A DNA stretch of 4,545 bases from a virus. Taxonomy: Duplodnaviria > Heunggongvirae > Uroviricota > Caudoviricetes. Both the position numbers and the translations under genes were made by a program. The notes under the pieces were generated by a model. The model was given only the letters and a program-made list of their open reading frames with translations. It ran no database searches and was not told the DNA's origin. Location of the stretch: IMG/VR virus record IMGVR_UViG_2541047968_000003, positions 1-4,545 of that record; one strand, 5' to 3'. The stretch's first letter is position 1, and each line of letters begins with the position of its first letter. Positions 1 to 2,469 of the stretch are shown here, piece by piece.

Positions 1-705
1 CTGCGTATCATCACTGATAACCTCAAACAGGAAGAGCACGCTATTGTGCAGGTGGAAGAAATGCAGGCGGTGAATGCCGTGCTGTATGGCAAATACACCA
101 TGGAAGGGGAACAGTTTGACACGGTTGAGGTGGATTTTGGACGCTCTGAAGGAAATAACATTGAGCAGGCCGACGGTAAAAAATGGTCTGAGCAGGACCG
201 TGATACGTTTGATCCGACGCATGATATTGACCTTTACTGCGATCAGGCCAGCGGTCTTGTGAATATTGCCATTATGGACGGTACTGTCTGGCGTCTGCTG
301 AATGGCTTTAAGCTTTTCCGCGAAAAACTGGATACCCGTCGCGGCTCAAATTCACAACTCGAAACGGCAGTGAAAGACCTGGGGGCGGTGGTGTCTTTCA
401 AAGGGTATTACGGTGATCTGGCCATTGTGGTGGCGAAAACGTCTTATGTGGCAGAAGACGGTACCGAAAAACGTTATCTGCCGGAGGGTACACTGGTCCT
501 GGGGAATACGGCAGCAGAGGGCATTCGTTGCTATGGTGCCATTCAGGATGCGCAGGCGTTGTCCGAAGGTGTGGTGGCCTCTTCCCGTTATCCGAAACAC
601 TGGCTGACGGTGGGGGATCCTGCCCGTGAATTTACCATGACGCAGTCCGCACCGCTGATGGTGTTGCCGGACCCGGATGAGTTTGTGGTGGTGCAGGTGA
701 AATAA
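1..705 (+). CDS. E: Major capsid protein, lambda gpE family; 5'-truncated by the window edge (C-terminal ~234 aa present)
   Basis: Frame 1 is open from nt 1 to the TAA at 703-705. The translation (LRIITDNLKQEEHAIVQVEEMQAVNAVLYGKYTMEGEQFD...KLDTRRGSNSQLETAVKDLG...ARYPKHWLTVGDPAREFTMTQSAPLMVLPDPDEFVVVQVK) closely follows the C-terminal two thirds of lambda gpE as I recall it (e.g. EKLDTRRGSNSELETAVKDLG, GDPAREFTMIQSAPLM, DPDEFVSVQLA). The M at 46 in the ORF track is internal, not the start. Confidence 0.95.
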   Translation: MRIITDNLKQEEHAIVQVEEMQAVNAVLYGKYTMEGEQFDTVEVDFGRSEGNNIEQADGKKWSEQDRDTFDPTHDIDLYCDQASGLVNIAIMDGTVWRLLNGFKLFREKLDTRRGSNSQLETAVKDLGAVVSFKGYYGDLAIVVAKTSYVAEDGTEKRYLPEGTLVLGNTAAEGIRCYGAIQDAQALSEGVVASSRYPKHWLTVGDPAREFTMTQSAPLMVLPDPDEFVVVQVK

Positions 706-713
706 TCCGTGAG

Positions 714-742
714 CGGGGGCGAAATGCCCCCGTGTCTTTTTT
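714..742 (+). terminator. Putative intrinsic terminator or RNA stem-loop between the capsid gene and the FI-like gene
   Basis: Perfect 7-bp GC-rich inverted repeat CGGGGGC (714-720) / GCCCCCG (726-732) with a 5-nt loop GAAAT, followed directly by TGTCTTTTTT (733-742). It sits 9 nt after the E stop and ends 15 nt before the FI ATG. Confidence 0.5.
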
Positions 743-756
743 CACAGGAGACCGAG

Positions 757-1140
757 ATGGCAACAAAAGAAGAAAATCTGAATCGCCTTCGTGAACTGTC
801 TGGCCTGCTGGGGCGAGAGGCGGATATGTCGGGGAGTGCTGCGGATATTGCTCAACGTGTGTCTGAGTGGGAAGAGGAGCTTGCTGTTTCCCCGGAGGGC
901 ATTATGCACTCTGATGAGAGCGGGGCTGATCAAAATCACACAGACGATGGTGAGCAGTTGAACAACACGGATGCTCCGGATGATGTTAAAGCCGTCCGGG
1001 TACGGAAGTGCCTGCAAGTAATGGGGTATTGCCCGGAGACAGGTCGTCCCGTTGAGCTGGCGTTACGGGGTATGCGTGTTCTGGTGCCATCATCACTGGC
1101 AACGGCCATGATACAGCACGGAACGGCTGAATATGCGTGA
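757..1140 (+). CDS. FI: Head assembly / DNA-packaging accessory protein, lambda gpFI-like
   Basis: ATG at 757 preceded by AGGAG (746-750, 6-nt spacer); TGA at 1138-1140. Position between E and FII, size (~127 aa), and an acidic central segment with a conserved-looking N-terminus (MATKEENLNRLRELSGLL, compare lambda FI MTKDELIARLRSLGEQL from memory). More divergent from lambda than its neighbours. Confidence 0.8.
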   Translation: MATKEENLNRLRELSGLLGREADMSGSAADIAQRVSEWEEELAVSPEGIMHSDESGADQNHTDDGEQLNNTDAPDDVKAVRVRKCLQVMGYCPETGRPVELALRGMRVLVPSSLATAMIQHGTAEYA

Positions 1141-2077: not shown

Positions 2078-2469
2078 AACACACTGACATTCGTGCCGCA
2101 GTGCTGGATGCACTCGAGCAGCATGAACACGGGGCGACGCTGTTTGATGGTCGCCCCGTTGTTTTTGACGAAGAGGATTTTCCTGCGATCGCGGTTTATC
2201 TGACGGATGCAGAGTATACCGGTGAAGAGCTGGATGCAGATACCTGGCGGGCCACACTGCATATTGAGGTGTTTTTACCGGCACAGGTACCTGATTCGGA
2301 GCTCGATCAGTGGATGGAAAGCCGGATTTATCCGGCGATGACTGCGATCCCTGCACTGGCAGGACTGATTACCACGATGGTTACGCAGGGCTATGAGTAT
2401 CGTCGTGATGACGATATGGCGTTATGGAGTTCTGCAGATCTGACTTATTCCATTACATACGAGATGTGA
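2074..2469 (+). CDS. U: Tail terminator protein, lambda gpU family
   Basis: ATG at 2074 overlaps the Z stop (ATGA). The 131-aa product [58 protein letters not shown]…[25 protein letters not shown]…YRRDDD…[15 protein letters not shown] is near-identical in layout and length to lambda gpU. TGA at 2467-2469. Confidence 0.95.

What the first reader, a model, noticed from the sequence alone, without database searches (positions are those of the whole stretch)
714..742. Strong terminator-like hairpin directly after the major capsid gene
A perfect 7-bp G/C stem with a 5-nt loop followed by a U-rich tract lies in the 51-nt E-FI gap. Inside an antiterminated late operon it may not terminate fully; it could instead lower expression of downstream genes relative to the capsid gene, or act as a 3' stabilising end for a processed capsid mRNA. 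I cannot tell from sequence which role it plays, or whether it is conserved at this position in lambda.
Basis: seen in the sequence. Interest (0 to 1): 0.45.

Follow-up and report, generated by a model that had tools for sequence, protein, structure and literature searches.

The report
Conserved terminator-like hairpin after capsid gene
A stable RNA hairpin followed by a run of U sits directly after the major capsid gene of this lambda-like prophage; phages with this capsid family almost always keep a hairpin at this spot although its sequence keeps changing, so it is a real but ordinary kind of phage signal whose exact job has not been measured.

Summary
Bases 714-732 form a perfect 7-bp G/C stem with loop GAAAU, extendable by G713·U733. 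UGUC and then U6 (737-742) follow, inside the 51-nt gap between the Phage_cap_E gene (stop 703-705) and the FI gene (ATG 757). The core folds at -16.8 kcal/mol (z -4.4). It is the only G/C-only stem of 7 bp or more in the window (0.028 expected per shuffle).

It is conserved in position, not in sequence. All 204 close loci and 11 of 12 distant E-family phages carry a GC-rich hairpin right after the capsid stop, with at least eight unrelated stem sequences. Lambda has AUGGCCC-UUCG-GGGCCAU. Compensatory changes occur within types. A U-rich tail follows in about 60% of variants.

In lambda and in the closest complete relative, hairpins follow both D and E, while the other head and proximal tail junctions examined have almost no gap.

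Best reading: an intrinsic-terminator-type hairpin inside the Q-antiterminated late operon. It most likely works at RNA level, protecting the 3' end of the capsid message, with leaky termination as a minor contribution. Function was not measured here.

This is a known kind of element (T7 Tφ, P22/L, SPP1). Interest is modest.

The parts
1..705 (+). 3' part of the major capsid protein gene (lambda E / phage 21 gene 7 type); stop codon TAA at 703-705
   Evidence: Pfam Phage_cap_E, E 6e-45. 64% amino-acid identity to lambda gpE over 234 residues. 99.6% to the PhiR12_2 capsid protein E.
706..756 (+). 51-nt non-coding gap between E and FI; the only gap longer than 15 nt between real genes in the window (the 26-nt G-T spacing is the frameshift region)
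   Evidence: ORF list. Gap table for the 97%-identical phage PhiR12_2_star. Indel variants inside the gap in related loci show that it is non-coding.
713..733 (+). RNA hairpin: 5' arm 713/714-720 (G)CGGGGGC, loop 721-725 GAAAU, 3' arm 726-732/733 GCCCCCG(U)
   Evidence: -16.8 kcal/mol, z -4.43. Pair probabilities 0.80-0.999 in long contexts. 100% of cells paired across 15 distinct 21-type variants, with the series G-C, G-U, A-U at one pair.
734..742 (+). U-rich tail GUCUUUUUU (U6 at 737-742)
   Evidence: Passes the terminator-like scan. The tail GTCTTTTTTCAC is present in 80 of 84 loci that carry this exact hairpin.
746..750 (+). Shine-Dalgarno AGGAG of FI, 6 nt before ATG 757; lies outside the hairpin
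   Evidence: Sequence. A ribosome-binding site is annotated at the homologous position in phage 21 record M81255.
757..1140 (+). FI gene (DNA-packaging chaperone), the first gene downstream of the hairpin
   Evidence: Pfam Packaging_FI, E 4.6e-14. Annotation in PhiR12_2_star.

Best explanation
The element is an intrinsic-terminator-type hairpin, a GC stem-loop with a U-rich tail, at the 3' end of the major capsid gene inside the single long Q-antiterminated late operon of a lambdoid (phage 21-like) prophage.

Shown: the hairpin is very stable and is not a chance feature. It is kept at this exact position throughout the lambda-E capsid family while its sequence is replaced again and again.

Inferred mechanism: late transcription by Q-loaded RNA polymerase mostly runs through it, because the Q 'nozzle' prevents hairpin formation in the RNA exit channel. 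Once the polymerase has passed, the hairpin folds in the mRNA and acts as a barrier to 3'-to-5' exonucleases (PNPase, RNase II). Any RNA 3' end produced downstream is trimmed back only as far as the hairpin. Such ends can arise from endonuclease cuts in the 19 kb of tail genes or in the adjacent U-rich tract, or from the small fraction of polymerases that do terminate at the U-run.

The capsid-coding segment (D and E, the proteins needed in about 400 copies per virion) is therefore insulated from decay that starts downstream, and it outlasts or outnumbers the message for the low-copy genes FI, FII, Z and U. Leaky termination would act in the same direction but is probably the smaller contribution in an antiterminated operon.
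For: - **Structure and non-randomness:**
- **Position conserved, sequence not:** every one of 204 close loci has a GC-rich hairpin 1-19 nt after the E stop. The same holds in 11 of 12 distant E-family phages at 27-89% amino-acid identity, from Salmonella, Alteromonas, Vibrio, Xylella, Achromobacter, Pseudomonas, Proteus, Pectobacterium and Erythrobacter hosts.
- **Unrelated stems at the same place:** 21 type GCGGGGGC/GCCCCCGU; lambda type (A/G)(U/C)GGCCC/GGGCC(A/G)(U/C); Providencia CGGCGGG/CCCGCCG; Trabulsiella GCACCACGG/CCGUGGUGC; Gifsy-1 AAAGGCCUGA/UCAGGCCUUU; and others.
- **Compensatory changes within types:** U-A to C-G and A-U/G-C/G-U in the lambda type, with 95.5% of cells paired against 33-57% when the partner is slid. 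G-C, G-U, A-U in the 21 type, with 100% paired.
- **Control windows:** in 20 of 27 representative loci the 70 nt after the capsid stop rank in the best 5% of that locus's own windows for hairpin stability.
- **Hairpin more constant than U-tract:** 18 of 30 variants have at least 5 T in the next 8 nt, 3 have 4, and 9 have 3 or fewer (Trabulsiella, Xylella Sano, Proteus pPM_01, Erythrobacter R16L, Alteromonas P24 and others). This points to a function that needs the stem but not necessarily termination.
- **Placement tracks the high-copy genes:** in lambda and in PhiR12_2_star, hairpins follow both D and E. From FI to the G/T genes the junctions overlap or have gaps of 15 nt or less. The only other gaps over 20 nt in the head and proximal tail block are C/Nu3-D (36 nt, no hairpin) in PhiR12_2_star and L-K (148 nt, structured) in lambda. 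In 12 of 12 distant phages the junction after the next gene has no meaningful gap.
- **Antitermination context:** a Q gene is annotated upstream in the closest relative. Q-lambda and Q21 form a nozzle that prevents terminator hairpin formation (PMC11150451).
- **Precedents:** RNA drops after T7 Tφ, which lies directly after capsid gene 10. That paper also cites work showing that secondary structure creates differential decay within E. coli polycistronic transcripts (PMC6938266).
Against: - No RNA data were available. No 3' ends, half-lives or coverage were examined, so the mechanism is inference.
- The U-rich tail is far more frequent than chance. P is about 0.03 per site for at least 5 T of 8 at 25% T, against 18 of 30 observed. 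In the 21 type the U6 run is nearly invariant. Termination, or some other function that needs U, is therefore also under selection.
- From my own memory, not verified here: classical work on lambda (Sampson, Hendrix, Huang and Casjens 1988, PNAS) attributed the large differences in late protein yields to translation initiation, with roughly equal mRNA. That would leave only a modest role for this element.
- The major tail gene V, also a high-copy gene, has no hairpin after it (V-G gap 13 nt).
- Lambda also has terminator-like hairpins after I, J and lom, so such elements are not exclusive to capsid genes.
- The loci sampled are phylogenetically related, and counts of 'types' are approximate.
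Confidence: 0.5

Rival explanations
1. Transcriptional attenuator. The hairpin and U-run terminate a substantial fraction of late-operon polymerases, including Q-modified ones, and so directly lower transcription of FI and everything downstream relative to the capsid gene. This is the T7 Tφ model.
For: The site passes the terminator-like scan as its best hit. U-rich tails are strongly enriched across variants (18 of 30), and U6 is nearly invariant in the 21 type. T7 has its single terminator directly after capsid gene 10, with a clear RNA drop downstream (PMC6938266). Phage L/P22 authors list partial termination as one possibility (PMC8022706).
Against: Q-loaded polymerase is built to prevent hairpin formation in the exit channel (PMC11150451). 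The U-run is offset 4 nt from the perfect stem. Nine of 30 variants have 3 or fewer T in the 8 nt after the stem. High-copy tail genes such as V lie downstream and would be penalised. Lambda has at least four further terminator-like hairpins in series, which would compound the losses.
Confidence: 0.17
2. Fail-safe insulator. It is a genuine terminator whose selected role is to stop polymerases that are not Q-modified, for example from spurious internal promoters, read-through of tR', or host read-in in the prophage. Expression of the downstream structural genes then depends strictly on Q. It has no role in stoichiometry.
For: Proposed for phage L and P22 (PMC8022706). Gene-transfer-agent and phage clusters with internal terminators that are bypassed only by a dedicated antiterminator are documented (PMC11150451). 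Lambda has a series of such hairpins after D, E, I, J and lom. The element resides in prophages of 1541 of 5426 complete E. coli genomes, where silence matters.
Against: This does not explain why the position directly after the capsid gene is the conserved one across very different phages. These include Chi-like and other Casjensviridae phages, most of them isolated as free phages, whose lifestyle and use of antitermination I did not check. It does not explain the variants without a U-tract. A safety stop would be more useful upstream of the lysis genes than 7-10 kb into the operon.
Confidence: 0.17
3. Translational decoupler. The hairpin stops ribosomes that have just finished the very heavily translated E gene from sliding on and re-initiating at FI, so that FI output is set only by its own Shine-Dalgarno sequence.
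For: The hairpin always lies between the E stop and the next SD, and never covers the SD. FI-type genes are low-demand genes placed directly behind the most translated gene. The hairpin needs no U-tract for this role, which fits the nine U-poor variants.
Against: A similar hairpin follows D in lambda, in the 21 type and in Gifsy-1, where the next gene (E) needs maximal translation. The enrichment of U-rich tails is not explained. A gap of 34-82 nt alone would already weaken coupling. There is no direct evidence.
Confidence: 0.08
4. No RNA function. The inverted repeat is a chance feature, a relic, or a DNA-level feature such as a recombination joint at a mosaic module boundary.
For: The E/FI boundary is a mosaic joint. 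Some phages share E and the hairpin but differ immediately after it (L086 and L174). Lambda-type and 21-type DNA similarity ends near the E stop.
Against: 0.028 such stems are expected per shuffled window. Independent replacement by unrelated stems at the same position, compensatory changes, and a sense-strand-specific U-tail are signatures of selection on a transcribed structure.
Confidence: 0.03

Closest known systems
T7 Tφ, the terminator directly after major capsid gene 10
   Same: A stable stem-loop with a U-run immediately downstream of the major capsid gene, inside a block of co-transcribed structural genes. Read-through continues into the tail genes, and RNA abundance drops downstream (PMC6938266).
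   Different: Tφ acts on T7 RNA polymerase, not on a host polymerase carrying a Q antiterminator. There is no sequence relationship. Tφ's effect has been measured, whereas nothing has been measured for this element.
Intra-late-operon terminator after the procapsid (coat) gene module of Salmonella phages L and P22
   Same: A lambdoid late operon with one promoter and a Q-type antiterminator. A predicted Rho-independent terminator lies at the end of the capsid-assembly module. [quoted passage not shown]
   Different: A different capsid protein family and a different gene order. That element was predicted in silico only, with no comparative or covariation analysis reported there.
Lambda's own E-FI hairpin (7163-7180) and D-E hairpin
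   Same: The same position between orthologous genes, a 7-bp stem, and a U/C-rich tail. It is the positional orthologue of the window's element.
   Different: The stem and loop differ completely (AUGGCCC-UUCG-GGGCCAU against GCGGGGGC-GAAAU-GCCCCCGU). It starts 2 nt after the stop instead of 8. Its U-tract is weaker and interrupted by C. It is not annotated in the lambda RefSeq record.
Intercistronic 3' stabiliser hairpins of bacterial operons (REP in malEFG, the puf and pap operons); named from my own knowledge
   Same: A stable stem-loop at the 3' end of the more highly expressed upstream cistron of a polycistronic RNA. The proposed mode of action is a block to 3' exonucleases that gives segmental differences in stability.
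   Different: This is not a REP sequence and not a dispersed repeat. Differential stability has not been shown here. This element also has a terminator-like U-tail.
SPP1 predicted terminator at 8775-8815, directly after major capsid gene 13
   Same: A predicted stem-loop with a T-run overlapping the capsid stop codon (gene 13 ends at 8777, gene 14 starts at 8828), inside the late structural gene block (PMC6316719).
   Different: A Gram-positive host, an unrelated capsid gene, and no known Q-type antitermination.

Membership tests
Intrinsic (Rho-independent) terminator | GC-rich stem of about 5-14 bp with a short loop | tested here: met
   7 G-C pairs plus one G·U, a 5-nt loop, -16.8 kcal/mol.
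Intrinsic (Rho-independent) terminator | U-tract of about 7-9 nt immediately 3' of the stem | tested here: inconclusive
   The tail is UGUCUUUUUU. It passes the simple scan (at least 5 T in 8), but the U6 run starts 4 nt after the perfect stem. Across the family, 18 of 30 variants are U-rich and 9 of 30 are not. TransTermHP and ARNold could not be run.
Intrinsic (Rho-independent) terminator | Sense orientation downstream of a gene, with a strand-specific tail | tested here: met
   It starts 8 nt after the E stop, and the T-run is on the + strand only.
Intrinsic (Rho-independent) terminator | RNA 3' ends or transcript release at the U-tract, in vitro or in vivo | not testable with these tools
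   No transcript data were available and no paper with 3'-end data for this site was found.
Intercistronic mRNA-stabilising hairpin (3' exonuclease barrier) | Stable stem-loop in an intercistronic gap of a polycistronic operon, at the 3' end of the more highly expressed cistron | tested here: met
   It lies in the E-FI gap of the late operon, and E is the major capsid gene.
Intercistronic mRNA-stabilising hairpin (3' exonuclease barrier) | Upstream RNA segment longer-lived or more abundant than the downstream segment, dependent on the stem | not testable with these tools
   Requires a rifampicin chase or RNA-seq, and stem mutants.
Conserved structured RNA element (selection on pairing) | Pairing maintained through sequence change (covariation or replacement) | tested here: met
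   Within types there is one pair each with double changes, plus wobble intermediates. 95.5% and 100% of cells are paired, against 33-72% for slid controls. The core 5 pairs are invariant within a type, so the formal covariation signal is small. The stronger evidence is the replacement by at least eight unrelated stems at the same position.
Any curated Rfam family | Match to a covariance model at or near the gathering score | tested here: not met
   No Rfam hit at 700-760 even at E up to 1. The only two hits in the window are chance-level matches elsewhere.

The most novel reading that the evidence does not exclude
The hairpins that bracket E (one after D, one after E) would be a conserved 'capsid message cassette'. 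The 26-kb late transcript would be processed at these two structures into discrete, long-lived D and E mRNAs. The post-capsid hairpin would act as a general firebreak against 3' decay, and possibly also against ribosome run-on into FI. Capsid:accessory stoichiometry in lambda-E-type phages would then be set partly after transcription, contrary to the classical view that translation initiation alone sets lambda late-protein ratios.
Probability: 0.15. Interest if true: 0.5.

Novelty: new member of a known kind. Interest (0 to 1): 0.3.

Why it matters
Terminator-like hairpins inside antiterminated phage late operons are often predicted, but their roles are stated to be unknown (PMC8022706). This analysis shows that the hairpin behind the lambda-E-type capsid gene is kept at the same place across distant phages while its sequence turns over. 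It also shows that the stem is more constant than the U-tract.

That gives a concrete, mutable target for testing whether such elements set capsid mRNA dosage by RNA stability, by leaky termination, or not at all. The target is an intergenic stem with no coding constraint, and it is also present in lambda and phage 21. Practically, the element sits in prophages of about 28% of complete E. coli genomes and is unannotated. It is also relevant to lambda-based display and engineering constructs that insert cargo after D or E.

Tried and rejected
- **Rfam scan of the whole window at E up to 1:** nothing at the site.
- **Longer outer helix in the MFE fold** (706-712 with 742-748, touching the FI Shine-Dalgarno sequence): rejected. 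Only 77.8% of cells pair across 15 variants, all departures are breaks with no compensation, and the helix is absent in the lambda type.
- **In-frame GTG 709 and ATG 724 upstream of FI** (the ORF list shows 709..1140): rejected as coding. Related loci carry 1-nt indels in the C-run and the T-run (L004, L030, L084, L178, L190). Lambda-type gaps have no such frame. The annotated start with a ribosome-binding site is the ATG equivalent to 757.
- **Formal covariation statistics:** weak, because the five core pairs are invariant within each type. I rely instead on between-type replacement.
- **Literature searches for direct data on lambda or phage 21 E-FI 3' ends, late mRNA half-lives or coverage:** nothing usable. 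The lambda ribosome-profiling paper (PNAS 2013) and the Casjens and Hendrix lambda review are not held.
- **Search for diverse U-gene loci** to follow up the second inverted repeat: returned only identical sequences.
- ** table:** the 'pairs' and 'loop' columns are unreliable because my script optimised energy over loop settings. Only the hairpin sequences, energies and tails from that call are used.
- **Genome-collection hits from unrelated taxa:** many are lambda DNA itself and were counted as one lambda type, not as independent evidence.

Full report
**What the window is.** The 4545 bases are part of the late (head-tail) operon of a lambdoid prophage of the phage 21 / PhiR12 type. They are 97% identical to Escherichia phage PhiR12_2_star and about 81% identical to phage 21-like phages. 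The gene order is E (3' part, ending at 705), FI (757-1140), FII (1133-1486), Z, U, V, G, T and the start of H. Pfam confirms Phage_cap_E, Packaging_FI and Phage_attach for the first three. The 181 bases around the finding occur in prophages of 1541 of 5426 complete E. coli genomes, with an exact match in strain JNEC-KY202. In the closest complete phage an annotated antiterminator Q lies upstream of the lysis, head and tail genes, all in one orientation.

**The observation.** It is correct to the base.
- The 5' arm is 714-720 CGGGGGC, the loop is 721-725 GAAAT, and the 3' arm is 726-732 GCCCCCG. G713·U733 is an optional eighth pair.
- TGTC and then T6 (737-742) follow.
- The stop codon is at 703-705, the FI Shine-Dalgarno AGGAG is at 746-750, and the ATG is at 757. 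The gap is 51 nt.
- The core hairpin folds at -16.8 kcal/mol (z -4.43; 0 of 200 shuffles as stable). The 40-nt context folds at -18.6 kcal/mol (z -3.45).
- In 150-460-nt contexts the stem pairs have probabilities of 0.80-0.999.
- It is the only G/C-only stem of 7 bp or more in the window, against 0.028 expected per dinucleotide shuffle.
- It is the best terminator-like site in the consensus scan.
- The one qualification is that the U-run is not flush with the stem.

**Conservation.** Lambda has a hairpin at the same place with an entirely different sequence: TAA-TC-ATGGCCC-TTCG-GGGCCAT-TGTTTCTCTG. I collected loci encoding E relatives from viral and genome collections and extracted the DNA after the E stop.
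- All 204 usable loci have a GC-rich hairpin starting 1-19 nt after the stop.
- The stems fall into unrelated types:
  - 21 type: GCGGGGGC/GCCCCCGT.
  - Lambda type: (A/G)(T/C)GGCCC/GGGCC(A/G)(T/C), with UUCG, UGUC, UGUU, UUUC, UGCG or AUUC loops.
  - Providencia: CGGCGGG-GAAA-CCCGCCG.
  - Trabulsiella: GCACCACGG...CCGTGGTGC.
  - Others.
- Within the 21 type, one pair runs G-C (12 variants), G-U (1) and A-U (2), and all 120 cells are paired.
- Within the lambda type, the two outer pairs show U-A/C-G and A-U/G-C/G-U. 95.5% of cells are paired, against 33-57% for slid controls.
- The inner five pairs never vary within a type, so the formal covariation signal is small. The stronger argument is repeated replacement at a fixed position.

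**Distant relatives.** I then looked at 12 distant E-family phages at 27-89% amino-acid identity: Gifsy-1, Alteromonas P24, Vibrio K251, Xylella Sano, Achromobacter AchV4, Pseudomonas UF_RH7, Proteus pPM_01, the Chi-like Salmonella phage YSD1, Pectobacterium MA11, Vibrio phi2, Erythrobacter R16L and E. coli 783R5.
- Eleven have a 34-82-nt gap after the capsid gene containing a stable hairpin of -7.8 to -24.2 kcal/mol.
- Only Vibrio phi2, where the next gene overlaps the capsid gene, has none.
- The next junction downstream has essentially no gap in all twelve.
- In 20 of 27 representative loci, the 70 nt after the capsid stop rank in the best 5% of that locus's own windows for simple-hairpin stability.

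**Hairpin versus U-tract.**
- Of 30 representative variants, 18 have at least 5 T in the 8 nt after the stem. The chance expectation is about 3% per site at 25% T.
- Three variants have 4 T, and nine have 3 or fewer.
- The tail is therefore clearly under selection in many lineages. In the 21 type, 80 of 84 loci keep GTCTTTTTTCAC.
- Still, the stem is the constant feature and the U-tract is dispensable in about a third of lineages.
- The tail lies only on the sense strand.

**Context in the operon.**
- In lambda, every late-operon gap longer than 40 nt holds a hairpin. D-E has AAAGGCCGC-CUGU-GCGGCUUUUUUU, and E-FI, I-J, J-lom and lom-stf have their own. The 148-nt L-K gap is also highly structured. 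The other head and proximal tail junctions overlap or have gaps of 15 nt or less.
- In PhiR12_2_star, the Nu1-to-I block has gaps longer than 20 nt only at C/Nu3-D (no hairpin), D-E (hairpin CAGGCCAC-CGCG/CGCGUU-...GGCCUG, no U-run) and E-FI.
- In both lineages, then, the genes for the two most abundant virion proteins are each followed by a hairpin.
- In the distant phages, where the decoration and capsid genes are only 12 nt apart, a single hairpin follows the pair.

**Mechanism.** Nothing here measures RNA, so this part is inference.
- Q-type antiterminators form a nozzle at the RNA exit channel that prevents terminator hairpins from forming (summarised in PMC11150451). Most late transcription should therefore pass the site.
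- After the polymerase has moved on, the hairpin will fold. A GC-rich stem at an RNA 3' end is the classical obstacle to PNPase and RNase II; this is established knowledge, cited from memory.
- I therefore favour a 3'-protective 'firebreak' role. Ends generated downstream, by endonucleolytic cleavage or by the minority of terminating polymerases, are trimmed back to the hairpin and no further. This prolongs the D/E message relative to that of the low-copy genes FI, FII, Z and U.
- The model accounts for four things: the universal stem, the tolerated loss of the U-tract, the position tied to the capsid gene in very different phages, and the second hairpin after D.
- Leaky termination (the T7 Tφ model; PMC6938266) works in the same direction and is my main rival, together with the fail-safe insulator idea raised for phage L and P22 (PMC8022706).
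- A translational-decoupling role is possible but does not fit the D-E hairpin.
- Against a large effect of any kind, I recall that classical lambda work attributed late-protein ratios mainly to translation initiation. I could not retrieve that paper.
- One further inference, untested: the hairpin begins 8 nt after the stop here and 2 nt after it in lambda. A ribosome sitting on the E stop codon should therefore melt part of the 5' arm, which could suppress termination on well-translated transcripts.

**Comparison with what is known.** The element works like, but is not homologous to, the following:
- T7 Tφ.
- The predicted terminator after the P22/L procapsid module.
- The predicted terminator overlapping the stop of SPP1 capsid gene 13 (PMC6316719).
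- Intercistronic stabiliser hairpins of bacterial operons.

It matches no Rfam family. It is not annotated in the lambda RefSeq record, the phage 21 record or the PhiR12 record. It is best filed as a further, well-conserved member of a known kind: a terminator or stabiliser hairpin after the capsid gene.

**Verdict.** Novelty is low to moderate and interest is 0.3.

Noticed in passing
window 2129-2159 (+), inside gene U (2074-2469): A perfect 9-bp GC-rich inverted repeat, ACGGGGCGAC-gctgtttgatg-GTCGCCCCGT, is the most stable 30-nt local fold of the whole window at -19.4 kcal/mol. Lambda has the same arms at 8608-8637. All six arm codons (G-A-T and G-R-P) are identical in the two phages, although third-position identity across U is only 54%. 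That is roughly p 0.03, a weak hint of selection on structure inside the coding sequence.
   Followed up: partly
L006 1128-1149; L285 9004-9060 (D/shp-E gap of 21-type phages, just upstream of the window): The gap between the decoration gene and E also holds a strong hairpin, CAGGCCAC-CGCG-GTGGCCTG at -16 kcal/mol (z -5.0), without a U-run. Lambda and Gifsy-1 have different hairpins at the same place. E is therefore bracketed by hairpins.
   Followed up: partly
L272 (lambda) 14128-14275, the L-K gap; also the I-J, J-lom and lom-stf gaps: Lambda's 148-nt L-K gap folds very strongly at -67.6 kcal/mol, with several GC-rich helices. Terminator-like hairpins also sit after I, J and lom. Their functions were not examined.
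   Followed up: no
L091-L106, L110, L114-L126 (genome-contig hits): Short, low-coverage contigs identical to lambda in the E-FI region appear in assemblies of unrelated organisms, including Kitasatospora, Bradyrhizobium, Neobacillus, Pseudoxanthomonas and an Akkermansia MAG. This is almost certainly lambda control or cloning DNA contaminating the assemblies.
   Followed up: partly
window 709-756 (+): GTG 709 and ATG 724, the latter inside the hairpin loop, are in frame with FI, so the mechanical ORF list shows 709..1140. Indel variants in relatives and the annotated ribosome-binding site indicate that the true start is ATG 757.
   Followed up: yes
L004, L030, L084 (position equivalent to window 727-731): Three related loci have one C fewer in the 3' arm (GCCCCG instead of GCCCCCG), which shortens or bulges the stem. 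These may be homopolymer sequencing errors or real weakened alleles.
   Followed up: no
L285 18333-18581 (I-J gap of PhiR12_2_star, downstream of the window): The 249-nt non-coding I-J gap has several strong hairpins, including a terminator-like GGCATCCTCCGGGGTGCC followed by a T-run. It looks like a small inserted (moron-like) segment and differs from lambda's 60-nt I-J gap.
   Followed up: no
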